DNA of 64,000 nucleotides from Octopus sinensis (taxonomy: Eukaryota), in contig NC_043006.1 of NCBI RefSeq assembly GCF_006345805.1, forward strand, positions 104,346,001 through 104,410,000. Reading direction: 5' to 3'. Shown piece after piece: positions 4,509 to 61,703 of this stretch. Position numbers and translations under genes: made by a program. The notes beneath the pieces were generated by a model. That model made no database searches. It worked only from the letters and a program-made list of their open reading frames with translations, and was not told where the DNA came from. Numbering within the stretch: the first letter of the stretch is position 1; each line of letters starts with the position of its first letter.

Positions 4509-4786
4509 GAACAAATACGTACATACACTCTTATATATATATATAATATGATATAATATAATATATGCATATAAATTAATAAATGAATATATATATATAT
4601 ATACACACATACGCACACGAAATATAATTCTACAAGTTTATTTTGATTTATGCAAAAATATGCATACGTACAAATGAATATGTTCATACTGATATACAAA
4701 TACATTTTACATCTATACTTATATATATATAAGTATAGATGTAAAATGTATTCGTATATCTATATATATATATATATATATATATA

Positions 4787-4967
4787 TGATAGATCGTTAG
4801 CTACTACACACATTTTTTCTCTCCTTGTTTTTCTGTGTATCTTTTTGTTGAAGAGCGTAGGCTCGAAACGTAAAAGACTTTTTCTATTCCTGAGCGCTAT
4901 ACTAATACATCTGTTCGTTTGTACACCACTTGCCTTCGTCTTTTGTTTATTTTCGTAAACTTTCCCT

Positions 4968-4968
<1 letters not shown>
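4787..4968 (+). mobile_element. Short (TA)n-embedded element with hammerhead-like motif (Penelope pseudo-LTR or retrozyme-like), copy 1
   Basis: ~180 bp island between two (TA)n tracts; homologous minus-strand copy at 56581-56769. Contains TCTTT-TTGTTGA-A-GAGC GTAG GCTC-GAAAC GTA-AAAGA. Confidence 0.7.
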
Positions 4969-4998
<30 letters not shown>

Positions 4999-5772
4999 CT
5001 ATGTGTTTGTGTGTGTGTGTATACTTGCTCATAAATACACAGTTATATATCCATCTATGTATATATAAACATGCGTACACTTGTACATACCAGAAACAAG
5101 CAAAATACATTTATATAAATACACACATATAATGATAAACAAATATAAATAATTCATTATGACATTAATTGAAAGTAGATAAAGCTATACTTGGTAGGAG
5201 GTAGAATATTTAGCTAGGATATGTCTGAAGTCTCCCTATGGAACACGAACCCACAACATTTGTTATCCTGTGCTACCACTATCCATTTCCATCCAAGATT
5301 TTTTTGTAACCCTTATATTCTACAGTTGAAACCTAACCACTTAAGCCAGATATGACCACCCACCACACATTTATCCTGTAAGGTCTGTCGATTCTCTAGT
5401 TTCCCGGTAAGTGATTTCATTTGGCAGAAAATTTCCATTCAAAGGAATCCTAGATTTTTGTATTAAGATTTTATTTATGGCTGAAGGTTTGCTGTTTTGT
5501 GATACATACAACAATAGATGATCTTAGCATTTTTGTGTCAAGAAAACTTAATCCTGAGATTACTGTAACAAAGTGGAGAAATTAGTGTATAGAAACAACC
5601 AGCAACAAAAAAAATAATAAATGTCCTTTTTCAATAAAGAATTACAGTGTCTTACAGTGTCTTAGCCAATTGGACGCTCAATATTTGTTGGAGGGCGTTT
5701 CCTTAAATAACAATATGATGGACTAACCGATCAAATATTCGTGGAAACTGAGGTAATGGCTAACGCCTTCAT

Positions 5773-7692: not shown

Positions 7693-10680
<2,988 letters not shown>

Positions 10681-14406: not shown

Positions 14407-15405
14407 TGTTAATATAAAACTGTGCAATATCATCCACGAAACCCTATCCACGATATTTTAATCGTTTTTCATCCATTCACCATTACAAAGCGGCAGTTTT
14501 ACAATTTGAATGACGACGGCCATTCTTAGTTGTCTGTGGTTTCTATTATTTCACGAAATAAAATTATCCAATATCTAGATTCCCTCTTACCTTTTGGGGA
14601 TGGTTTTGTTGCGAATCTGATTGCATGTTTGTTTGTATGTGTGGGTGATTATGCATTGTTTTTGTTTACACACACACATACATAAATGTATGTGTGTGTG
14701 TATGTATGTATGTATGTATGTATGTATGTATGTATGTATGTATGTATGTATGTATGCATGCATGTATGTATGTATGTATGTATGTATGTATGCATGCATG
14801 CATGTATGTATGTATGTATTATGCATGCATGCATGTATGTATGTATGTATGTATGTATGTATAAATGTATGTGTGTGTGTGTATGTATGTATGTGTGTAT
14901 GTATGTATGTATGCATGTGTGTATGTATGTATGTATGTATGTATGTATATATGTTTGTATGTATGTATGTATGTATGTATGTATGCATGCATGCATGTAT
15001 GTATGTATGTATGTACGTATGTATGTATGTATGTATGTATGCATGCATGTATGTATGTATGTATGTATGTACGTATGTATGTATGTATGTATGTATGTAT
15101 GCATGCATGTATGTATGTATGTATGTATGTATGCATGCATGCATGTATGTATGTATGTATGCATGCATGCATGTATGTATGTATGTATGTACGTATGTAT
15201 GTATGTATGTATGTATGTATGTGTATGTATGTATGTATGTATGTATGTATGTATGCATGCATGCATGTATGTATGTATGTATGCATGCATGCATGTATGT
15301 ATGTATGCATGTATGTATGTATGTATGTATATATGTATGTGTGTGTATGTATGTATGTGTGTATGTATGTATGTATGTATGTATGTATGTATGTATGTAT
15401 GTATG

Positions 15406-15436
<31 letters not shown>

Positions 15437-16077
15437 GTATGTATGTATGTATGCATGCATGCATGTATGTATGTATGTATGCATGCATGCATGTATGTAT
15501 GTATGTATGTATGTATGTATATATGTATGTGTGTATGTATGTACGTATGTATGTATGTATGTATGTATGCATGCATGTATGTATGCATGCATGTATGTAT
15601 GTATGTATGTATGTATGTATGTATGTATGCATGCATGTATGTATGTATGCATGCATGTATGTATGTATATATGTATGCATGCATGTATGTATGCATGCAT
15701 GTATGTATGTATGTATGTATGTATGTATGTATGTATGCATGTATGTATGTATGTAGGTATGTATGTATGCATGCATGTATGTATGTATGTATGTATGTAT
15801 GTATGTGTGTATGTATGTATGTATGTGTGTATGTATGTATGTATGTATGTATGTATGTATGTATGTATGTATGTATGTATGTATGTATGTATGTGTGTAT
15901 GTATGTATGTATGTGTGTATGTATGTATGTATGTGTGTATGTATGTATGTATGTGTGTATGTATGTATGTATGTGTGCATGTATGTATGTATGTATATAT
16001 GTATGTATGTGTGTGTGTGTGTATGTATGTATGTGTGTATGTATGTATGTATGTATGTGTGTATGTATGTAAGTATG

Positions 16078-16108
<31 letters not shown>

Positions 16109-16547
16109 GTATGTATGTATGTATGCATGCATGTATGTATGTATGTATGCATGCATGCATGTATGTATGTATGTATGTATGTATGTATATATGTATGTGT
16201 GTATGTATGTATGTATGTATGTATATATGTATGTATGTATGCATGCATGTATGTATGTATGTATGTATGTATGCATGCATGTATGTATGTATGTATGTAT
16301 GTATGTATGCATGCATGTATGTATGCATGCATGCATGTATGTATGTATGCATGCATGTATGTATGTATGTATGTATGCATGCATGTATGTATGCATGCAT
16401 GTATGTATGTATGTATGTATGTATGTATGCATGCATGTATGTATGCATGCATGTATGTATGTATGTATGTATGTATGTATGTATGCATGCATGTATGTAT
16501 GCATGCATGTATGTATGTATGTATGTATGCATGCATGTATGTATGCA

Positions 16548-16835
16548 TTTCGGCTCATGATCGTAATGTTGTGAGTTCGATCCGGCGACGCGTGTGTCCT
16601 TGAGAGCAAGCACACTTTATTTCACGTTTGTATGCTCCAGTCCACTCAGCTGGCAAAAATGAGTTGTACTTGTATTTGCAAAGGGTCAGCCTGTATCTCT
16701 GTGTCCGCTGATTTTCCCCGAGAACTACGTTAAGGGTACACGTGTCTGTGGAATGCTCAGCCTTGCACGTTAATTTCACAAGCAAGCTGTTATGTTGATC
16801 GTATCAGCTGGGACCCTATCGTCGTAACCGGGAGG
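16548..16835 (+). mobile_element. 5'-clipped SINE (family C-type head and core with alternative tail) embedded in the satellite
   Basis: TTCGGCTCATGATCGTAA..GAGTTCGAT..CTCCAGTCCACTCAGCTGGCAAAAATGAG, then tail ..CCCCGAGAACTACGTTAAGGGTACAC..GTCGTAACCG. Confidence 0.85.
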
Positions 16836-17848
16836 ATGAAGAGGATGAGAGAGAGATGTATGCATGCATGTATGTAGTATGTATGCATGCATGTATGTAT
16901 GTATGTATGTATGTATGCATGTATGTATGTATGTATGTATGCATGCATGTATGTATGTATGTATGTATGTATGTATGTGTGTATGTATGTATGTATGTGT
17001 GTATGTATGTATGTATGTATGTATGTATGTATGTTTGTATGTATGTATGTATGTATGTATGCATGCATGCATGTATGTATGTATGTATGTACGTATGTAT
17101 GTATGTATGTATGTATGTATGCATGCATGTATGCATGTATGTGTGTGTGTATGTATGTATGTGTGTATGTATGTATGTATGTATGTGTGTATGTATGTAT
17201 GTATGTATGTATGTATGTTTGTATGTATGTATGTATGTATGTATGCATGCATGCATGTATGTATGTATGTATGTACGTATGTATGTATGTATGTATGTAT
17301 GGTGTATGTATGTATGTTATATGTATGTGTGTGTGTGTATGTATGTATGGTGTATGTATGTATGTATGTATGTGTGTATGTATGGTATGTATGTATGTAT
17401 GTTGTTGTATGTATGTATGTATGTATGTATGCATGCATGCATGTATGTATGTATGTATGTACGTATGTATGTAGTATGTATGTATGTATGCATGCATGTA
17501 TGTATGTATGTATGTATGTACGTATGTATGTATGTATGTATGTATGCATGCATGCATGTATGTATGTATGTATGTATGTATGTATGCATGCATGCATGTA
17601 TGTATGTATGTATGCATGCATGCATGTATGTATGTATGTATGTATGTATGTATGTATGTATGTATGTATGTGTGTATGTTTGTATGTATGTATGTATGTA
17701 TGCATGCATGCATGTATGTATGTATGTATGCAAGCATGCATGTATGTATGTATGTATGTATGTATGTATGTATATATGTATGTGTGTGTGTGTATGTATG
17801 TATGTGTGTATGTATGTATGTATGTATGTGTGTATGTATGTATGTATG

Positions 17849-17879
<31 letters not shown>

Positions 17880-20800
17880 GTATGTATGTATGTATGCATG
17901 CATGCATGTATGTATGTATGCATGCATGCATGTATGTATGTATGTATGTTGTATGTGTATGTATGTGTATGTATGTTGTGTGTATGTATGTATGTATGTA
18001 TGTATTGTATGTATGTATGCATGCATGTATGTATGTATGTATGTATGCATGCATGTTGTATGTATGTATTATGTATGTATGTATGTATGTATGTATGCAT
18101 GCATGTATGTATGCATGCATGTATGTATGTATGTATGCATGCATGTATGTATGTATGTATGTATGCATGCATGTATGTATGCATGCATGTATGTATGTAT
18201 GTATGTATGTATGTATGTATGTATGTATGTATGCATGCATGTATGTATGTATGTATGTATGTATGTATGTATGTATGTATGTATGTATGCATGCATGTAT
18301 GTATGCATGCATGTATGTATGTATGTATGTATGTATGTATGTATGTATGTATGCATGTATGTATGTATGTATGCATGCATGCATGTATGTATGTATGTAT
18401 GCATGCATGTATGTATGCATGCATGTATGTATGTATGTATGTATGTATGCATGTATGTATGTATGTATGTATGTATGCATGCATGTATGTATGTATGTAT
18501 GTATGTATGTGTGTATGTATGTATGTATGTATGTGTGTATGTATGTATGTATGTATGTATGTATGCATGTATGTATGTATGTATGTATGTATGTGTGTAT
18601 GTATGTATGTATGTGTGTATGTATGTATGTATGTGTGTATGTATGTATGTATGTGTGTATGTATGTATGTATGTGTGTATGTATGTATGTATGTATGTAT
18701 ATATGTATGTGTGTGTATGTATGTATGTGTGTATGTATGTATGTATGTATGTGTGTATGTATGTATGTATGTATGTATGTATGTATGTATGTATGTATGT
18801 ATGTATGTATGTATGTATGTATGTATGTATGTATGTATGTATGCATGCATGTATGTATGCATGCATGCATGTATGTATGTATGTATGCATGCATGTATGT
18901 ATGTATGTATGTATGTATGTATGTATGTATGATGTATGTATGTATGTTATGTATGTATGTATGCATGTATGTATGTATGTATGTATGTATGCATGCATGT
19001 ATGTATGTATGTATGTATGTATGTATGTATGTATGCATGTATGTATGTATGCATGCATGTATGTATGTATGTATGCATGTATGTATGTATGTATGTATGT
19101 ATGCATGCATGTATGTATGCATGCATGTATGTATGTATGTATGTATGTATGTATGTATGTATGTATGCATGCATGTATGTATGTATGTATGTATGTATGC
19201 ATGCATGTATGTATGCATGCATGTATGTATGTATGTATGTATGTATGTATGCATGCATGTATGTATGTATGTATGTATGTATGTATGTATGTATGCATGC
19301 ATGTATGTATGTATGTATGTATGCATGCATGTATGTATGTATGCATGTATGTATGTATGTATGTATGTATGTATGCATGCTGTATGTATGTATTGTATGT
19401 ATGCATGTATGTATGTATGTATGTATGCATGTATGTATGTATGCATGTATGTATGTATGTATGGTATGTATGTATGTATGTATGTATGCATGCATGTATG
19501 TATGTATGTATGTATGTATGCATGCATGCATGTATGTATGCATGCATGTATGTATGTATGTATGTATGTATGTATGTATGTATGCATGCATGTATGTAGG
19601 TATGTATGTATGTATGTATGTATGCATGTATGTATGTATGTATGTATGTATGTATGTATGCATGTATGTATGTATGTATGTATGTATGTATGTATGCATG
19701 CATGTATGTATGTATGTGTGTATGTATGTATGTATGTGTGTATGTATGTATGTATGTGTGTATGTATGTATGTGTGTATGTATGTATGTATGTATGTATG
19801 TGTGTATGTATGTATGTATGTATGCATGCATGTATGTATGTATGTATGTATGTGTGTATGTATGTATGTATGTGTGTATGTATGTATGTGTGTATGTATG
19901 TATGTATGTATGTATGTATGTATGTATGTATGTATGTGTGTATGTATGTATGTATGTTTGTATGTCTGTCTGTATGTATGTATGTATGTATGTACGTATG
20001 TATGTATGTATGTGTGTATGTATGTATGTATGTATGTATGTATGCATGCATGTATGTATGTATGTATGTATGCATGCATGCATGTATGTATGTATGTATG
20101 TATGTATGTATGTATGTATGTATGTGTGTATGTATGTATGTATGTGTGTATGTATGTATGTATGTATGTGTGTATGTATGTATGTATGTATGTATGTATG
20201 TATGTATGTATGTATGTATGTATGTATGTATGCATGCATGCATGTATGTATGTATGTATGTATGCATGCATGTATGTATGTATGTATGTATGTATGTATG
20301 TATGTATATATGTATGTGTGTATGTATGTATGTATGTATGTATGTATGTATGCATGCATGTATGTATGTATGTATGTATGCATGCATGTATGTATGTATT
20401 ATGTATGTATGTATGTATGCATGCATGTATGTATGTATGTATGTATGTATGTATGTATGCATGCATGTATGTATGTATGTATGTATGCATGCATGTATGT
20501 ATGCATGCATGTATGTATGTATGTATGTATGTATGTATGTATGTATGTATGTATGTATGTATGTATGTATGTATGTATGTATGTATGCATGCATGTATGT
20601 ATGTATGCATGCATGTATGTATGTATGTATGTATGTATGGTATGCATGCATGTATGTATGTATGTATGCATGCATGTATGTATGTATGTATGTATGCATG
20701 TATGTATGTATGCATGTATGTATGTATGTATGTATGTATGCATGTATGTATGCATGTATGTATGTATGTATGTATGCATGTATGTATGTATGTATGTATG

Positions 20801-21625
20801 TATGTATGTGTGTGTGTATGTATGTATGTATGTGAGTATGTATGTATGTATGTATGTATGTATGCATGTATGTATGTAGGTATGTATGTATGTATGTGTG
20901 TATGTATGTATGTATGTGTGTATGTATGTATGTATGTATGTATGTATGTATGTATGTGTTGTATGTATGTATGTATGTGTGTAGTATGTATGTATGTATG
21001 TATGTATGTGATGTATGTATGTATGTATGTGTGTATGTATGTATGTATGTATGTGTGCATGTATGTGGTATGTATGTAGTATGTATGTGTGTGTGTGTGT
21101 ATGTATGTTGTGTGTATGTATGTATGTATGTATGTATGTATGTATGTAGGTATGTATGTATGTATGTATGTATGTATGATGTATGTAGTATGTTTGTATG
21201 TATGCATGCATGTATGTATGTATGTATGCATGCATGCATGTATGTATGTATGTATGTATGTATGTATGTATATATGTATGTGGTATGTAGTATGTATGTA
21301 TGTATATATGTATGTATGTATGCATGCAGTATGTATGTATGTATGTATGTATGCATGCATGTATGTATGATGTATGTATGTATGTATGCATGCATGTATG
21401 TATGCATGCATGCATGTATGTATGTATGCATGCATGTATGTATGTATGTATGTATGCATGCATGTATGTATGCATGCATGTATGTATGTATGTATGTATG
21501 TATGTATGCATGCATGTATGTATGTATGTATGTATGGATGTATGTATGTATGTATGTATGTATGCATGCATGTAGTATGCATGCATGTAGGTATGTATGT
21601 ATGTATGCATGCATGTATGTATGCA

Positions 21626-21905
21626 TTTCGGCTCATGATGTAAGGTGTGAGTTCGATTCCCGGCGGACGCGTTGTGTCCTGAGCAGACACTTTATTTCAC
21701 GTTGTCAGTCCACCCGCTGGCAAAAATGTTTTGTACTTGTATTTCAAAGGGTCATGCCCTGTCACTCCTGTGTCACGCTGATTTTCCCCGAGAACTACGT
21801 TAAGGGTACACGTGTATGTGGAAGATCAGCCATTGCACGTTAATTTCACAAGCAAGCTGTTCCGTTGATGTATCAGCTGGGACCCTATCGTCGTAACAGG
21901 CAAGG
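21626..21905 (+). mobile_element. Second copy of the same SINE insertion (duplicated with its flanks)
   Basis: Same left junction TATGCATGCATGTATGTATGCATTTCGGCTCATGAT and same (GA)n right junction as the 16548 copy; differs mainly by 1-2 nt indels. Confidence 0.85.
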
Positions 21906-23859
21906 AAGAGAGAGAGATGTAGAGAGATGTTATGCCTGCATGTATGTATGTATGTATGCATGTGTATGTATGTATGTATGTATGTATGTATGCATGTATG
22001 TATTGTATGTATGTATGTTGCATGTATGTATGTATGTATGTTATGTATGTATGTGTGTATGATGTATGTATTATGTGTGTATGTATGTATGTATGTATGT
22101 ATGTATGTATGTATGTGGTATGTATGTATGTATGTAGTATGCATGCATGCATGTATGTATGTATGTATGTACGTATGTATGTATGTATGTATGTATGTAT
22201 GCATGCATGTATGCATGTATGTGTGTGTGTATGTATGTATAGTGTATGTATGTATGTATGTATGTATGGTGTATGTATGTATGTATGTATGTATGTATGT
22301 TGTATGTATGTATGTATGTATGTATGCATGCATGTATGTATGTATGTATGTATGTACGTATGTATGTATGTATGTATGTATGTATGTATGTATGTATGTA
22401 TATATGTATGTGTGTGGTGTATGTATGTATGTGTGTATGTATGTATGTATGTATGTGGTGTGTATGTATGTAGGTATGTATGTATGTTGTATGTATGTAG
22501 TATGTATGTATGTATGCATGCATGCATGTATGTATGTATGTATGTATGTATGTATGTATGTATGTATGTATGTATGCATGCATGTATGTATGTATGTATG
22601 TATGCTGTATGTATGTATGTATGTATGTATGCATGCATGCATGTATGTATGTATGTATGTATGTATGTATGCATGCATGCAGGATGTATGTATGTATGCA
22701 TGCATGTATGTATGTATGTATGTATGTATGTATGTATGTATGTATGTATTGTATGTGTGTATGTTTGTATGTATGTATGTATGTATGCATGCATGTATGT
22801 ATTGTATGTATGTATGCAAGCATGCATGTATGTATGTAGTATGTATGTATGTATGTATATATGTATGTGTGGTGTGTGTATGTATGTATGTATGTATGTA
22901 TGTATGTATGTATGGTGTATGTATGTATGTATGTATGTTATGTATGTATGTAGTATGTATGTATGTATGTATGTATGTATGCATGCATGATGTATGTATG
23001 TATGCATGCATGCATGTATGTATGTATGTATGTATGTATGTATGTATATATGTATGTATGTATGTAGTATGTATGTATGTATGTTTGTATGTATGTATGC
23101 ATGATGTATGTATGTATGTATGTATGTATGCATGTATGTATGTATTATGTATGTATGTATGTATGTATGTATGCATGCATGTATGTATGCATGCATGTAT
23201 GTATGTATGTATGTCATGCATGTATGTATGTATGTATGTATGTATGCATGTATGTATGCATGTATGTATGTATGTATGTGTGTATGTTATGTATGTATGT
23301 ATGTATGTATGTATGCATGCATGTATGTTATGTATGTATGTATGTATGTATGTGATGTATGTATGTATGTATGCATGCATGATGTATGCATGCATGTATG
23401 TATGTATGTATGTATGTATGTATGTTATGTATGTATGTATGTAGGTATGTATGTATGCATGCATGCATGTATGTATGTATGTATGCATGATGTATGTATG
23501 TATGTATGTAGTATGCATGTATGTATGTATGCATGTTGATGTATGTATGTATGTATGCATGCATGTATGTATGTATGTATGTATGTATGTGTGTATGTAT
23601 GTATGTATGTGGTGTGTATGTATGTATGTATGTATGTATGTATGCATGTATGTATGTGTATGTATGTATGTATGTGTGTATGTATGTATGTATGTGTGTA
23701 TGTATGTATGTATGTGTGTATGTATGTATGTATGTGTGTATGTATGTATGATGTGTGTATGTATGTATGTATGTATGTATATATGTATGTGTGTGTATGT
23801 ATGTATGTGTGTATGTATGTATGTATGTATGTGTGTTTGTATGTATGTATGTATGCATG

Positions 23860-23890
<31 letters not shown>

Positions 23891-26591
23891 GTATGTATGC
23901 ATGTATGTATGTATGTATGTATGCATGCATGTATGTATGCATGCATGCATGTATGTATGTATGCATGCATGCATGTATGTATGTATGATGTATGTATATA
24001 TGTATGTGTGTGTATGTATGTATGTATGTATGTATGTATGCATGTATGTATGTATGTATGTATGTATGCATGCATGTATGTATGTATGTATGTATGTATG
24101 ATGTATGTATGCATGTTGTATGTATGCATGCATGTATGTATGTATGTATGCATGTATGTATGTTGTATGTATGTATGCATGCATGTAGTATGCATGCATG
24201 TATGTATGTGGTATGTATGTATGTATGTATGTAGTATGCATGCATGTATGTATGTATGGTATGTATGTATGTATGTATGCATGTTGTATGTATGCATGCA
24301 TGTATGTATGTATGTATGTATGTATGTATGCATGCATGTATGTATGTATGTATGTATGTATGTATGTATGTATGCATGCATGTATGTATGTATGTATGAT
24401 GCATGCATGTTGTATGCATGCATGTATGTATGTATGTATGTATGTATGTAGCATGCATGTATGTATGTATATATGTATGCATGCATGTATGTATGTATGT
24501 ATGTATGCATGCATGTATGTATGCATGTATGTATGTATGTATGTATGTATGTATGTATGTATGTATGCATGCATGTATTGTATGTATGTATGTATGTATG
24601 CATGCATGCATGTATGTATGTATGCATGTATGTTATGTATGTATGTATGTATGTAGTATGTATGCTGCATGTATGTATGGTATGTATGTATGTATGTATG
24701 TATGCATGTATGTATGTATGTATGTATGTATGTATGTATGCATGTATGTATTAGTATGTATGTATGTATGTATGCATGATGTATGTATGTATGTGTGTAT
24801 GTATGCATGTATGTGTGTATGTATGTATGTATGGTATGTATGTATTGTATGTGTGTATTGTATGTATGTATGTATGTATGTATGTGTGTATGTATGTATG
24901 TATGTATGCATGCATGTATGTATGTATGTATGTATGTGTTGTATGTATGTATGTATGTGATGTATGTATGTATGTGGTATGTATGTATGTATGTGTGTAT
25001 GTATGTATGTATGTATGTATGTGTTGTGTATGTATGTGTGTATGTTTGTATGTCTGTCTGTATGTATGTATGTATGTATGTGTGTATGTATGTATGTATG
25101 TATGTATGTATGTTGTATGTATGTAGTATGTATGCATGCATGCATGTATGTATGTATGTATGCATGCATGCATGTATGTATGTATGTATGTATGTAGTAG
25201 TATGTATGTATGTGTGTGTGTATGTAGTATGTGTGTATGTAGTATGTATGTATGTGTGTATGTATGTATTGTATGTATGTATGTATGATGTATGTATGTA
25301 TGTATTGTATGTATGTATGTATGTATGCATGTAGGTATGTATGTAGCATGCATGTATGTATGTATGTATGTTGTTATGTATGTATGTATGTATATGATGT
25401 ATGTGTGTATGTATGTAGTATGTATGTATGTATGTATGCATGCATGTATGTATGTATGTATGTATGATGCATGTATGTATGTATTATGTATGTATGTATG
25501 TATGTATGTATGTATGTATGCATGCATGTATGTATGTATGTATGCATGCAATGTATGTATGTATGTATGTATGTATGTATGTATGTATGTCATGCATGTA
25601 TGTATGTATGTATGTATGTATGTATGGATGTATGTATGTATGCATGCATGTATGTATGTATGTAGGTATGTATGTATGCATGCATGTAGTATGTATGTAT
25701 GCATGTATTGTATGTATGTATGTATGTATGTTGTGCATGCCTGTATGTATGTATGTATGTATGTATGTATGTATGTATGTATTATGTATGCATGTATGTA
25801 TGCATGCATGTATGTATGTAGTATGTATGCATGTTGATGCATGTATGTATGTATGTATGCATGCATGTATGTATGTATGTATGTATTATGTATGTATGTG
25901 TTATGTATGTATGTATGTGAGTATGTATTATGTATGTATGTATGATGCATGTATGTATGTAGGTATGTATGTATGTATGTGTGTATGTATGTATGTATGT
26001 GTATGTATGTATATATGTATGTGTTTGTGTGTATGTATGTATGCATGTGTGTATGTATGTAGTATGTGTGTATGTATGTATGTATGTGTGTATGTATGGA
26101 TGTATGTATGTATGTATATATGTATGTGGTATGTATGTATGTGTGTATGGTGTATGTATGATGTATGTATGTATGTATGATGTATGTATGTATGTTGTTG
26201 TATGTATGTATGTATGTATGTAAGTATGTATGCATGTATGTATGTATGTATGTATGTATGTATGCATGCATGCATTATGTATGTATGTATGTATGCATGC
26301 ATGAATGTATGTATGTATGTATGTATGTATATATGTATGTATGTATGTATTGTATGTATGTATGTATGTATGTATGTATGCATGCATGTATGTATGTATG
26401 ATGTATGTATGCATGCATGTATGTATGTATGTATGTAGTTGTATGCATGCATGTATGTATGCATGCATGTATGTATGTATGTATGCATGCATGTATGTAT
26501 GTATGTATGTGTGTATGTATGTATGTATGTGTATATGTTTGTATGTATGTGTGTATGTATGTATGTGTGTATGTATGTATGTATGTATGTA

Positions 26592-26622
<31 letters not shown>

Positions 26623-28752
26623 GTATGTATGTATGTATGTATGTATGTGTGTATGTATGTATGTAAGTATGTATGTGTGTATGTATGTATGTATGTGTGT
26701 ATGTTTGTATGTATGTGTGTATGTATGTATGTGTGTATGTATGTATGATGTATGTATGTATGTATGCATGCATGTATGTATGTATGTATGTATGTATGTA
26801 TGTATGCATGTATGTATTATGTATGTATGTATGTATGTATGCATGTATGTATGTATGTATGTATGTATGTATGTATGTATGCATGCATGTATGTATGCAT
26901 GCATGTATGTATGTATGTATGTATGTATGTATGTATGTATGTATGCATGTATGTATGTATGTATGTATGTATGTATGTATGCATGCATGTATGTATGTAT
27001 GTATGTATGCATGCATGTATGTATGTATGTATGTATGCATGTATGTATGTATGCATGTATGTATGTATGTATGTATGTATGTATGTATGTATGCATGCAT
27101 GTATGTATGTATGTATGTATGTATGCATGTATGTATGTATGTATGTATGCATGCATGTATGTATGCATGTATGTATGTATGTATGTATGTATGTATGTAT
27201 GTATGTATGCATGCATGTATGTATGTATGTATGTATGTATGTATGTATGCATGCATGTATGTATGTATGTATGCATGTATGTATGTATGTATGTATGTAT
27301 GTATGTATGTATGTATGCATGCATGCATGTATGTATGTATGTATGTATGCATGTATGTATGTATGTATGTATGCATGCATGTATGTATGTATGTATGTAT
27401 GTATGTATGCATGCATGCATGTATGTATGTTATGTATGCATGCATGCATGTATGTATGTATGTATGTATGTATGTATGTATGTTATATGTATGTGTGTGT
27501 GTGTTATGTATGTATGTAGATGTATGTGTGTATATGTATGTATGTATGTATGTTGTTTGTATGTATGTATGTATGTATGTATGTGTGTATGTATGTATGT
27601 ATGTATGTATGTGTATGTGTGTATGTTGTATGTATGTGTGTATGTATGTATGTATGTATGTATGTATGTATGTATGTGTGTATGTATGTATGTATGTGTG
27701 TATGTTGTATGTATGTATGTATGTATGTATGTATATATGTATGTATATGTGTGTATGTATGTATGTATGTGTGTATGTATGTATGTATGTATGTATGTAT
27801 GTGTGTATGTATGTATGTATGTTTGTATGTCTGTCTGTATGTATGTATGTATGTATGTGATGTATGTATGTATGTATGTGTGTATGTATGTATGTATGTA
27901 TGTATGTGTGTATGTATGTATGTATGTTGTATGTCTGTCTGTATGTATGTATGTATGTATGTATGTGTGTATGTATGTATGTATGTATGTATGTGTGTAT
28001 GTATGTATGTATGTTTGTATGTATGTATGTATGTATGTATGTATGTATGTATGTATGTGTGTATGTATGTATGTATTTTTGTATGTCTGTCTGTATGTAT
28101 GTATGTATGTATGTATGTGTGTATGTATGTATGTATATATGTATGTATGTATGAGTGTGTATATGTGTGTATAAGGAATTACATTGGTGATTTTGTATTC
28201 TTTATATTGTATGCGGGTTCGCCATTGTGTGATTTGTGTGTGTGTGTCTGTTCGTCTGTGAGTGTATGTAGGTGGCATGCGTATATATATATATGTATGT
28301 ATTTATATATGCAGATAGAAATGTATATATATAAAAATGTGCATGCGTATATAAATATATATATAATATTATGCGTGTGTGAGTGTGTGTAATTATACAT
28401 ATATACACATATATAGTCATGTGAATATATATATATATACACGTGTGTGCTTGTGTGTGTGTGTGTGTGTGTGTGCGTGTGTATGCGTGCGGTAGTGTGT
28501 GTGCATATACAGATATGGTCGAACGTATGAGTTAATTATTGAGAAGTTTGCCTGGCAGCTGTCCCGAGCAGTCAGCTTAGGTCCAACTGCATGCCCACTT
28601 GGATAAGGGCCTCTGCAATACGTTTCAATCGATGAATCCTTACGAGTGAAAATAGAAACTCACAACCTGTTACATAGAATGCACCTGTAATTCGAGGATA
28701 TAGCTTTGTCACTCTTGTGTCATACTAATTCAAATGAAATAATATAAGCTAT

Positions 28753-46600: not shown

Positions 46601-46984
46601 ATAAAGCCAGGTTCAATCTACTCCCCTGATGATGGTGACTGCTACTACAACGTCGGCAAACGATCTCCACATCCTGAATAAGCCTTTATCTCTACGTGAG
46701 CCGACACGACAAGACATCGAATTGCGAGGATTGTACGGCTGTGACCTTCTGAATCCTCATTCGTTGAATCGGCGACAAAGTCAAGTAATCTACTGGATTT
46801 GTTGTGTATATAAGCAGGTTAGATACTAATTTCTCCGGGATTGGTCAAATCATCTTGATACCCTTGATGAGAAATCAATAATGATCGAAAATCACTTAAG
46901 ACTATTTGTCACTTATTTACTCTACGGAGTAGTTAAATTAGCCATATTTGCATTTCTACAACGTTGGTATAGGGTAAAGGGTAA

Positions 46985-47319: not shown

Positions 47320-47520
47320 GTTTGTATACATATATGATCAGATCATACAGTGATGCTATGTGAACTGATATCCCCATTGAGAGGCTGCTGATATTAGATA
47401 GAGTGTTAGACACTTACGGTATGCAAATTAGTAGCCCCACTTCTCTGTAATGACTGGATCTGTTGAACATATAAACAAATTGGTTACTTATTCCACTGGA
47501 ATAAGTCAGATGATGAAGAT

Positions 47521-47563
47521 CCCTCTGATGAGAAACCAATGAGTTTCGAAAATCGATTAAAGC
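47521..47563 (+). ncRNA. Minimal hammerhead ribozyme motif with intact catalytic core
   Basis: CCCT-CTGATGA-GAAAC CAATGA GTTTC-GAAA ATCGAT TA-AAG: canonical core, 5 bp stem II, palindromic stem III AATCGATT; stem I weak. Confidence 0.6.
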
Positions 47564-56580: not shown

Positions 56581-56769
56581 AGAGGAGAATTCACAAAAAA
56601 AAAACAAAAGACGAAGACAGGTGGTGTAGACAATAAACAGATGTATTAGTATAAAACTCGGGAAGCGAAAAAGTCTTTTAAGTTTCGAGCCTACGCTCTT
56701 ACACAGAAAGGAACACAGAAAGAAATAAGGAGAGAAAATAAAGAATGTGTTGTGGCTAGCGATCTATCA
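56581..56769 (-). mobile_element. Short microsatellite-embedded element with hammerhead-like motif, copy 2
   Basis: Colinear with 4787-4968; motif at 56674-56711 reads CCTTT-CTGTGTA-A-GAGC GTAG GCTC-GAAAC TTA-AAAGA. Confidence 0.7.
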
Positions 56770-56774
56770 CTGCG

Positions 56775-61579: not shown

Positions 61580-61703
61580 CAGTGTCGTCCACTATTGTTT
61601 CGGGCCTACTAATTGTTTAGTATGCATGTATATATATACATATGTATGTATATACATGCATACTAAACAATTAGTAGGCCCGAAACAATAGTGGACGACA
61701 CTG
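61580..61703. repeat. 124 bp near-perfect palindrome truncating a family E SINE (SINE head ~61507-61615)
   Basis: One mismatch; centred on TACATATGTA. Confidence 0.95.

What the first reader, a model, noticed from the sequence alone, without database searches (positions are those of the whole stretch)
4787..4968. Two-copy microsatellite-dwelling element with a hammerhead fold carrying a shared non-canonical U6 core
Seen: this ~180 bp element and its minus-strand relative (56581-56769) both sit in (TA)n/(GA)n tracts. Both conserve stem I (CTTT/AAAG), stem II (GAGC-GTAG-GCTC) and GAAAC. Copy 1 has a loop-less palindromic stem III (ACGT) and a GUA triplet. Their cores read TTGTTGA-A and CTGTGTA-A, giving consensus CUG-U-N-GA-A where CUGANGA is expected. 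Established: Penelope-like elements and retrozymes carry minimal type I hammerheads with palindromic stem III that cleave as dimers, and A6 is normally near-invariant. Inference: a mobile family with a natural A6U hammerhead variant, or one that spread after losing self-cleavage. Two copies cannot distinguish these.
Basis: partly seen in the sequence, partly recalled or inferred. Interest (0 to 1): 0.75.

Follow-up and report, generated by a model that had tools for sequence, protein, structure and literature searches.

The report
Penelope hammerhead with family-wide U6 core
This short insert is the cut-off tail of a young, very abundant Penelope-type jumping gene whose hammerhead (self-cutting RNA) motif has U instead of the usual A at one core position in 96% of about 15,700 matching copies while the rest of the motif is kept, so it is likely a slowed ribozyme, but cutting is untested.

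Summary
Observation confirmed. Both window copies are 5'-truncated 3' ends (pLTR) of a Neptune-type Penelope-like retrotransposon. The genome holds 18,445 exact matches to the motif. Full-length copies are young; one has an open 1,009-aa RT + GIY-YIG frame with a hammerhead in both repeats. U6 is family-wide: 15,118 U, 358 C, 176 A, 43 G. The A6 copies are scattered over the tree like sporadic mutations. Between subfamilies only N7 and H17 change in the 36-nt hammerhead, against 32-42% of flank columns, so the core is under selection. A sister family in the same genome keeps A6, with one compensatory stem I pair, so U6 is derived. One unrelated metagenome element also shows U6 (single copy). 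Against efficient cleavage: copies run through the cut site, 5' ends do not pile up there, and A6 mutants are slow in print. The two window copies carry private core damage. Best reading: an attenuated, probably protein-assisted ribozyme (about 55%); rival: a non-cleaving RNA scaffold (about 33%). This scan noted the same family before on other DNA of this genome, and U6 in other genomes. I did not find it in print, but one key paper was not available.

The parts
4786..4968 (+). Copy 1: 5'-truncated 3' pLTR fragment of the Penelope-like family A, between (TA)n tracts
   Evidence: 81.5% identity over 222 bases (includes some TA flank) to the 3' end of full-length copy L296; 93% to nearest copy L180
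4841..4876 (+). Minimal type I hammerhead motif of copy 1: stem I 4841-4844/4873-4876, core 4845-4851 (U3 private, U6 at 4848), extra A 4852, stem II 4853-4864, GAAA 4865-4868, palindromic ACGT 4868-4871, H17 = A at 4872 (predicted cut after 4872)
   Evidence: sequence; position counts in 67 copies
4755..4787 (.). Upstream (TA)n tract, part of the target microsatellite
4968..5004 (.). Downstream (TA)n tract; the element's own short TA stretch merges with it (predicted priming site of reverse transcription)
   Evidence: 82 of 90 blind-sampled copies have a TA run within about 70 bases after the 3' motif
56581..56774 (-). Copy 2: 3' pLTR fragment of the N7 = G subfamily of the same family, between (TA)n tracts
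   Evidence: (8% from its cluster consensus)
56675..56710 (-). Hammerhead motif of copy 2: U6 at 56703; private G8U at 56701 and G16.2U at 56681 (palindrome broken)
   Evidence: sequence

Best explanation
The element is the 5'-truncated 3' repeat of a young Neptune-type Penelope-like retrotransposon, and its minimal hammerhead, which has U6 across the family, is likely an attenuated ribozyme that would cut slowly and probably only with help from the element's own protein or a second hammerhead. Shown: the full unit is about 4.45 kb (5' UTR, RT, CxxxxCxxC linker, GIY-YIG, 3' repeat with the hammerhead) and occurs as partial tandems with two hammerheads. Shown: copies end in a short TA stretch about 105 bases past the cut site, which in tandem masters runs on into the 5' UTR and in insertions merges with genomic (TA)n. 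Inferred: the endonuclease nicks (TA)n, the nick primes on the internal TA stretch of the RNA, and reverse transcription runs back through an uncut or re-ligated hammerhead, mostly stopping early and leaving stubs of about 200 bases. Inferred: fast cleavage would separate the priming site from the ORF, so a slow core is tolerated or favoured, while the fold is kept for occasional processing (release from read-through RNA, or circularisation). Predicted only: U6 can pair with A15.1 and zip the monomer into an off state.
For: Family identity: U6 at the 3' hammerhead in 21 of 21 long copies (20 picked by RT DNA at 99% identity, plus L071); 7 have a second hammerhead upstream at 4.3-4.9 kb; L296 has an open 1,009-aa frame; Pfam RVT_1 E 1.3e-07 and GIY-YIG E 0.008, below cut-off. 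U6 fixed: 15,118 U, 358 C, 176 A, 43 G; 66 of 67 copies picked blind by a 3' motif. A6 is sporadic: 26 changes on the tree versus 25.7 for shuffled labels, while N7 (17 vs 65) and H17 (13 vs 42) are inherited. Selection on the core: subfamily consensuses differ only at N7 and H17 (2 of 36 columns) versus 28-37 of 88 flank columns, Fisher P 1e-3 to 3e-5 (blind set). N7 takes all four bases. H17 is A, U or C; G17 occurs in only 100 copies, spread over all N7 types. Polarity: the sister family B keeps A6, sister status 99% SH-aLRT on thumb/endonuclease pieces, with a C-G to G-C swap in stem I. 34 of 35 hammerheads beside related elements in 80 metagenome loci have A6, as do all 56 rows of Fig. 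S3 of PMC4209133. Print: a natural A6C hammerhead keeps low activity (PMC3088659 section 8; PMC7151607 passages), and the Anolis PLE hammerhead cleaves only with the element's protein (PMC11167929).
Against: No cleavage data for this motif. 77 of 90 copies extend upstream of the cut site, and only 2 of 90 start within 2 bases of it (about 1 expected from the 20 starts in the surrounding 93 bases). All 7 upstream repeats run 466 to more than 1,686 bases past their hammerhead. In a type III hammerhead all single mutants in CUGA had low activity except the C3/G8 swap (PMC9901934 passages). In Anolis PAc, catalytic mutants did not affect insertion in vitro and no RNA-seq ends were found at the cut site. 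Loop II and the extra A, free in hammerheads generally, are also fixed within family A, so the conservation could reflect protein binding. Absence of a G17 subfamily rests on few changes. Invariance of position 6 alone is not significant, since about 60% of flank columns are also invariant. The stem covariation is a single event. The predicted U6-A15.1 pairing (P 0.38-0.92) is not the only way to mask the palindrome; some natural A6 copies mask it too.
Confidence: 0.55

Rival explanations
1. The U6 motif no longer cleaves. The hammerhead-like fold is kept as a binding or folding signal for the RT/endonuclease protein near the priming site, and the family spread without self-cleavage.
For: Copies span the cut site and 5' ends are not enriched there. 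Catalytic mutants of the Anolis PLE hammerhead insert normally in vitro. [quoted passage not shown] Loop II is invariant within family A. A6 mutants are slow in vitro.
Against: The only positions that change between subfamilies are the two that the catalytic consensus leaves free or nearly free (N7, H17), and C3, U4, G5, G8, A9, G12, A13, A14, A15.1 and U16.1 never do. No G17 subfamily exists.
Confidence: 0.33
2. U6 is a fully competent core in this context: the extra A after A9, the dimeric stem III or the protein compensates, and the RNA is cut and re-ligated into circles that template the partial tandems.
For: Partial tandems with variable upstream lengths fit more-than-unit copying of a circle (model proposed in PMC4209133). 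One shared private variant in both repeats of L298. U6 recurs with a U3-A8 core in an unrelated element (L358).
Against: Within-locus and between-locus repeat differences are alike (1.6 vs 2.0), so the circle test is inconclusive. Published A6 changes lower activity strongly. L358 is a single sequence.
Confidence: 0.08
3. U6 is a neutral founder mutation in a dead motif, and the apparent conservation comes from recent amplification or from how copies were picked.
For: Part of the sample was picked by the hammerhead motif itself. The youngest subfamily is 99% identical.
Against: The blind set picked by a 3' motif gives the same result: 2 of 36 hammerhead columns differ versus 28-37 of 88 flank columns.
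Confidence: 0.04

Closest known systems
Minimal type I hammerheads (min-HHR) in pLTRs of metazoan Penelope-like elements (Cervera and De la Pena 2014, PMC4209133; read: first two of four parts of the main text and first two of three parts of the supplement PDF)
   Same: Short stem I, extra nucleotide between A9 and G10.1, G10.1-C11.1, loop-less palindromic stem III, location in the pLTR, most copies as single truncated stubs.
   Different: U at position 6 across the family. All 56 motifs in their Fig. S3 have A6 and their descriptor consensus is CUGANGA; the core variant they describe in the parts I read is U3-A8.
Neptune/Nematis clades of endonuclease-positive PLEs (Craig et al. 2021, PMC8557442; passages read)
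   Same: [quoted passage not shown]
   Different: Non-canonical hammerhead core. No reference Neptune or Nematis sequences were on hand, so the clade is assigned by motifs and (TA)n targeting, not by a tree with named members.
PAc, Poseidon element of Anolis carolinensis (Frangieh et al. 2024, PMC11167929; first two of four parts read)
   Same: Hammerhead in the pLTR; reverse transcription starts inside the RNA downstream of the hammerhead; AT-rich targets.
   Different: In PAc the ORF starts inside the hammerhead and the start site is not homologous to the target. Here the motif lies hundreds of bases from the ORF and the inferred start site is a TA stretch that matches the (TA)n target.
Natural A6C hammerhead of phage Bcep176 (PMC3088659 section 8; PMC7151607 passages)
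   Same: A natural substitution at position 6 with the rest of the core kept.
   Different: C rather than U, a single phage sequence rather than more than 15,000 copies; shown to be slow with Mg2+ and active with Mn2+. Nothing is measured for this U6 motif.
Non-LTR retrozymes (bioRxiv 10.64898/2026.07.22.740005; passages read)
   Same: Type I hammerhead, animal genome, link to PLEs.
   Different: This family is autonomous and dispersed as truncated stubs, not a non-coding tandem array.

Membership tests
Endonuclease-positive Penelope-like element | Single ORF with RT followed by a C-terminal GIY-YIG endonuclease | tested here: met
   L296 open frame of 1,009 aa; RVT_1 E 1.3e-07 at aa 392-581, GIY-YIG E 0.008 (below curated cut-off) at aa 812-845; homologues carry the same domains
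Endonuclease-positive Penelope-like element | Partial tandem arrangement forming pLTRs that hold a hammerhead | tested here: met
   7 of 20 long copies have an upstream hammerhead; in 6 it is joined to the ORF by a shared 5' UTR
Endonuclease-positive Penelope-like element | [quoted passage not shown] | tested here: met
   translation shows CSLC between the IIY and YIG words, with downstream histidines; definition from PMC8557442
Neptune (or Nematis) clade | CX2-5CxxC linker between RT and endonuclease | tested here: met
   CX4CxxC in L296 and L029
Neptune clade | RT groups with named Neptune elements rather than Nematis | not testable with these tools
   no named reference set; homologues are unnamed or 'uncharacterized'
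Neptune clade | Insertion bias for microsatellites | tested here: met
   82 of 90 copies have a TA run at the 3' end
Minimal type I hammerhead (min-HHR) | Stems I and II and a palindromic stem III around the core | tested here: met
   97.9% of cells paired in 12 rows of families A and B; one pair with a change on both sides, a single event
Minimal type I hammerhead (min-HHR) | C3, U4, G5, G8, A9, G12, A13, A14, A15.1-U16.1, H17 not G | tested here: met
   each in 61-67 of 67 copies; invariant among subfamily consensuses; the two window copies each break at least one of these
Minimal type I hammerhead (min-HHR) | A6 | tested here: not met
   U in 15,118 of 15,695
Minimal type I hammerhead (min-HHR) | Self-cleavage after H17, as a dimer or with protein help | not testable with these tools
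   needs a bench assay; only contigs were available from public runs
Non-LTR retrozyme | Non-coding tandem array of short hammerhead units | tested here: not met
   copies are dispersed stubs of a coding 4.45 kb unit

The most novel reading that the evidence does not exclude
A6U is a recurrent, selected tuning of Penelope hammerheads: it arose on the stem of this family and again in an unrelated element, and it turns the ribozyme into a switch in which U6 pairs with A15.1 and locks the monomer until the retrotransposon protein or a partner hammerhead opens it. Searches that demand CUGANGA would then have missed a whole class of regulated natural ribozymes with tens of thousands of copies in animal genomes.
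Probability: 0.2. Interest if true: 0.75.

Novelty: new variant of a known kind. Interest (0 to 1): 0.52.

Why it matters
What the hammerheads of Penelope-like elements do is an open question: they are nearly universal in these elements yet slow in vitro and dispensable for insertion in the one reconstituted system. This genome offers a natural comparison: a young, intact, highly amplified family with U6 and its sister family with A6 and almost the same stems, plus 176 natural A6 copies inside the U6 family. If U6 cleaves, the accepted core consensus is too narrow and motif searches miss large families. If it does not, a major retrotransposon family spread while keeping a non-catalytic hammerhead fold under selection, which would point to a structural role.

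Tried and rejected
(1) Rfam: no hammerhead hit (one search was swamped by microsatellite miRNA models and only 150 of 777 rows were shown). (2) A second apparent U6 family in this genome (67 copies, 65 with U at that place) was rejected: it lacks stem I, has G at position 17, and lies at the 3' end of another retroelement whose upstream frame resembles a restriction-like endonuclease (resemblance recalled; no Pfam hit). (3) U6 pattern in viral contigs: 86 stretches, 80 fetched, 0 of 80 with both stems; the pattern from L358 found 0. (4) Circle versus linear template by comparing the two repeats of a locus: inconclusive. (5) Pile-up of 5' ends at the cut site: none. (6) Public runs: no RNA holder listed. 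Contigs laid from runs of organisms B-E and from runs only guessed to be RNA cannot show ends; the difference tables did not even list the known N7 variation, so a blank at position 6 says nothing. One contig of organism B has no substitution against the U6 reference over 223 bases. (7) 'U6 locks the monomer' is kept only as a prediction, since some A6 copies also mask the palindrome. (8) No genome-wide protein search for the endonuclease was run, so the number of ORF-bearing copies is known only as 2,001 first-look candidates of a DNA search, 40 scored. (9) Print: ten searches listed no paper on a U6 PLE hammerhead; none of the listed papers held 'A6U'. Lunse, Weinberg and Breaker (RNA Biol 14:1499, on PLE hammerhead variants) is not held and could already describe it; the supplements of PMC3088659 (Figs S6, S7 on core variants), PMC8557442 and PMC9901934 were not read and may bear on this. 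The word 'octopus' was a guess from memory; the host was not identified.

Full report
Observation. The 17-base motif (stem II plus GAAAC) occurs twice in the window, with a mean of 0.01 in 100 shuffles. Copy 1 has the hammerhead at 4841-4876 with U6 at 4848; copy 2 at 56675-56710 (minus) with U6 at 56703. Rfam does not call it. An HMM of the family repeat finds only these two copies in the window.

Copy number and position 6. The window's genome G000 (2.72 Gb) holds 18,445 exact matches to the motif, control 0. With the rest of the core required, position 6 is U in 15,118, C in 358, A in 176 and G in 43 copies, so U is 96.3% of 15,695. The transition is the commonest departure, as expected for decay after insertion. 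To avoid picking on the hammerhead, I took 90 of the first 100 listed sites of an 18-base motif near the 3' end (19,337 sites). Of these 90, 67 had an ungapped hammerhead window (at least 26 of 34 matches); the other 23 were truncated, deleted or shifted and were left out of the count. U6 was present in 66 of 67, N7 was U 38, A 12, C 9, G 8, and H17 was A 37, U 29, C 1. The window copies each carry private damage: U3 in copy 1; U8 and a broken palindrome in copy 2.

A6 copies are sporadic. On a tree of 131 repeat fragments with positions 6, 7 and 17 masked and A6 rows oversampled on purpose (28 rows), position 6 needs 26 changes against 25.7 for shuffled labels. N7 needs 17 against 65.3 and H17 13 against 41.7, with 0 of 200 shuffles as low. 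The tree has few columns and few supported forks, so only these totals are used.

Selection on the motif. Clustering the blind set (60 rows) on non-hammerhead columns gave three subfamilies at each of two thresholds. Their consensuses differ at 2 of 36 hammerhead columns, N7 and H17, against 28 or 37 of 88 flank columns (Fisher P 1.2e-3 and 3.3e-5). The larger, partly motif-picked set gave five subfamilies with the same two positions against 39 of 106 flank columns. G17 occurs in 100 copies, spread over all N7 types. Limits: loop II and the extra A are also fixed within the family, few changes underlie the H17 pattern, and position 6 alone could stay fixed by chance.

The carrier. Some copies extend upstream into a GIY-YIG frame on the same strand, and L071 holds RT and endonuclease with frameshifts. 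A DNA search with its RT region gave 40 scored hits at 99-100% identity among 2,001 candidates. I fetched 20 of them. All 20, and L071, have U6 at the 3' hammerhead. Seven have a second hammerhead 4.3-4.9 kb upstream (six U6, one C6). L296 has an open frame of 1,009 aa with RT, a CX4CxxC linker and a GIY-YIG domain with two inner cysteines. These are the marks of the Neptune and Nematis clades as defined in PMC8557442 (passages). RT relatives reach 70% identity over the RT piece; the few named ones come from cnidarians, a shark and a snail.

Anatomy and targeting. In six tandem loci the upstream repeat passes through a short TA stretch about 105 bases beyond the cut site into a shared 5' UTR; the downstream repeat stops at the same stretch and merges with genomic (TA)n. 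The seventh (L302) has a long TA run there and looks like two separate insertions. 82 of 90 blind copies have a TA run at the 3' end. I infer that nicked (TA)n primes reverse transcription on this internal TA stretch. Internal initiation is shown for the Anolis element PAc (PMC11167929), though there the start site is not homologous to the target. Every copy that spans the hammerhead must then come from RNA that was uncut or re-ligated there. 77 of 90 copies reach upstream of the cut site and 2 of 90 begin within 2 bases of it, no more than the local background. Comparing the two repeats within loci did not separate a circular from a linear template.

Polarity and recurrence. The genome also holds 12,897 matches to a canonical A6 pattern, control 30, mainly two other families by the 100 rows listed. 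Family B has the same stem II arms, a different loop, a related 3' flank and a C-G to G-C swap in the outer pair of stem I; this is one event. On thumb and endonuclease pieces, family A (7 rows, 98% SH-aLRT) and family B (18 rows, 100%) are sisters (99%; quick tree); five of the 20 loci picked by the family B endonuclease DNA showed a family B hammerhead within reach, all five with A6. Beside related elements in 80 metagenome loci, 35 minimal hammerheads were found (0 in reversed controls): 34 with A6 and one, L358, with U6 in a U3-A8 core and different stems. L358 has RT and GIY-YIG with one frame break and lies outside the A+B clade. It is a single sequence, so a chance mutation is possible. 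U6 is therefore derived on the stem of family A and may have arisen more than once.

What print says. All 56 PLE hammerheads in Fig. S3 of PMC4209133 have A6, and metazoan minimal hammerheads cleave weakly even as dimers. A natural A6C variant is slow but active (PMC3088659 section 8) and prefers Mn2+ (PMC7151607 passages). In a mutational scan of a type III hammerhead, mutants in CUGA had low activity apart from the C3/G8 swap (PMC9901934 passages). The PAc hammerhead cleaves only with its protein, and its catalytic mutants insert normally in vitro. Ten searches listed no report of a U6 PLE hammerhead; the most relevant paper (Lunse et al., cited in PMC6765202) is not held, and several supplements were not read.

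Mechanism. The most likely reading is an attenuated ribozyme: the catalytic layout is kept under selection, while A6U lowers the rate, which suits an RNA whose priming site lies just 3' of the cut. Folding predicts that U6 pairs with A15.1 in the monomer (mean P 0.38-0.92 by subfamily, 0 in A6 copies), and L358 folds the same way, but some A6 copies hide the palindrome by other pairings, so this is only a lead. The main rival is a non-cleaving scaffold for the protein. The data here cannot separate the two.

Earlier notes of this scan (unchecked AI notes, read after my own analysis) describe the same family on other pieces of this genome and U6 hammerheads in other genomes, including a shark. 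They agree with my reading but are not counted as evidence; the shark note prompted the metagenome scan. Nothing was listed near this place.

Verdict. A real feature and a new variant of a known kind: the stub of an ordinary Neptune-type element, with an unusual and well-supported family-wide core change whose catalytic effect is untested. Interest 0.52.

Noticed in passing
window 47518-47560 (+) and 46857-46900 (+): Two related hammerhead-like motifs of another family with A6 (cores CTGATGA and TTGATGA; a 5-bp stem II in the first); stem I is imperfect.
   Followed up: partly
window 8321-9865 (+): 515-aa frame of a non-LTR retrotransposon (RVT_1 E 4.9e-12, zf-RVT E 4.6e-07), in the only G+C-rich part of the window.
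   Followed up: partly
window 14686-28172: A 13.5 kb (ATGT)n array, about 3,387 units, 86% matches.
   Followed up: no
window 61584-61699: A near-perfect 116-base inverted repeat with a microsatellite centre, scored by miRNA models only because of its hairpin; possibly a miniature inverted-repeat element.
   Followed up: no
L358:2794 (+), metagenome contig: Minimal hammerhead with both U3-A8 and U6, 3' of an RT + GIY-YIG frame that is about 44% identical to the L296 protein; single copy.
   Followed up: partly
L106, L108, L110 and others: Family C: an abundant canonical A6 minimal hammerhead with a 5-bp stem II and 10-base loop, often beside (AAT)n or (AAC)n repeats; carrier not identified.
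   Followed up: no
L135-L164: 3' end of another retroelement, ending in a short hairpin without a tail and carrying hammerhead-like words without the stems; upstream frame resembles a restriction-like endonuclease (recalled).
   Followed up: partly
L216: A copy with the whole hammerhead cleanly deleted between two CTTT words while both flanks remain.
   Followed up: no
L169/L170; C1:14476432 and C1:14477094: Pairs of nearby copies, one inverted and one direct, typical of complex PLE insertions.
   Followed up: no
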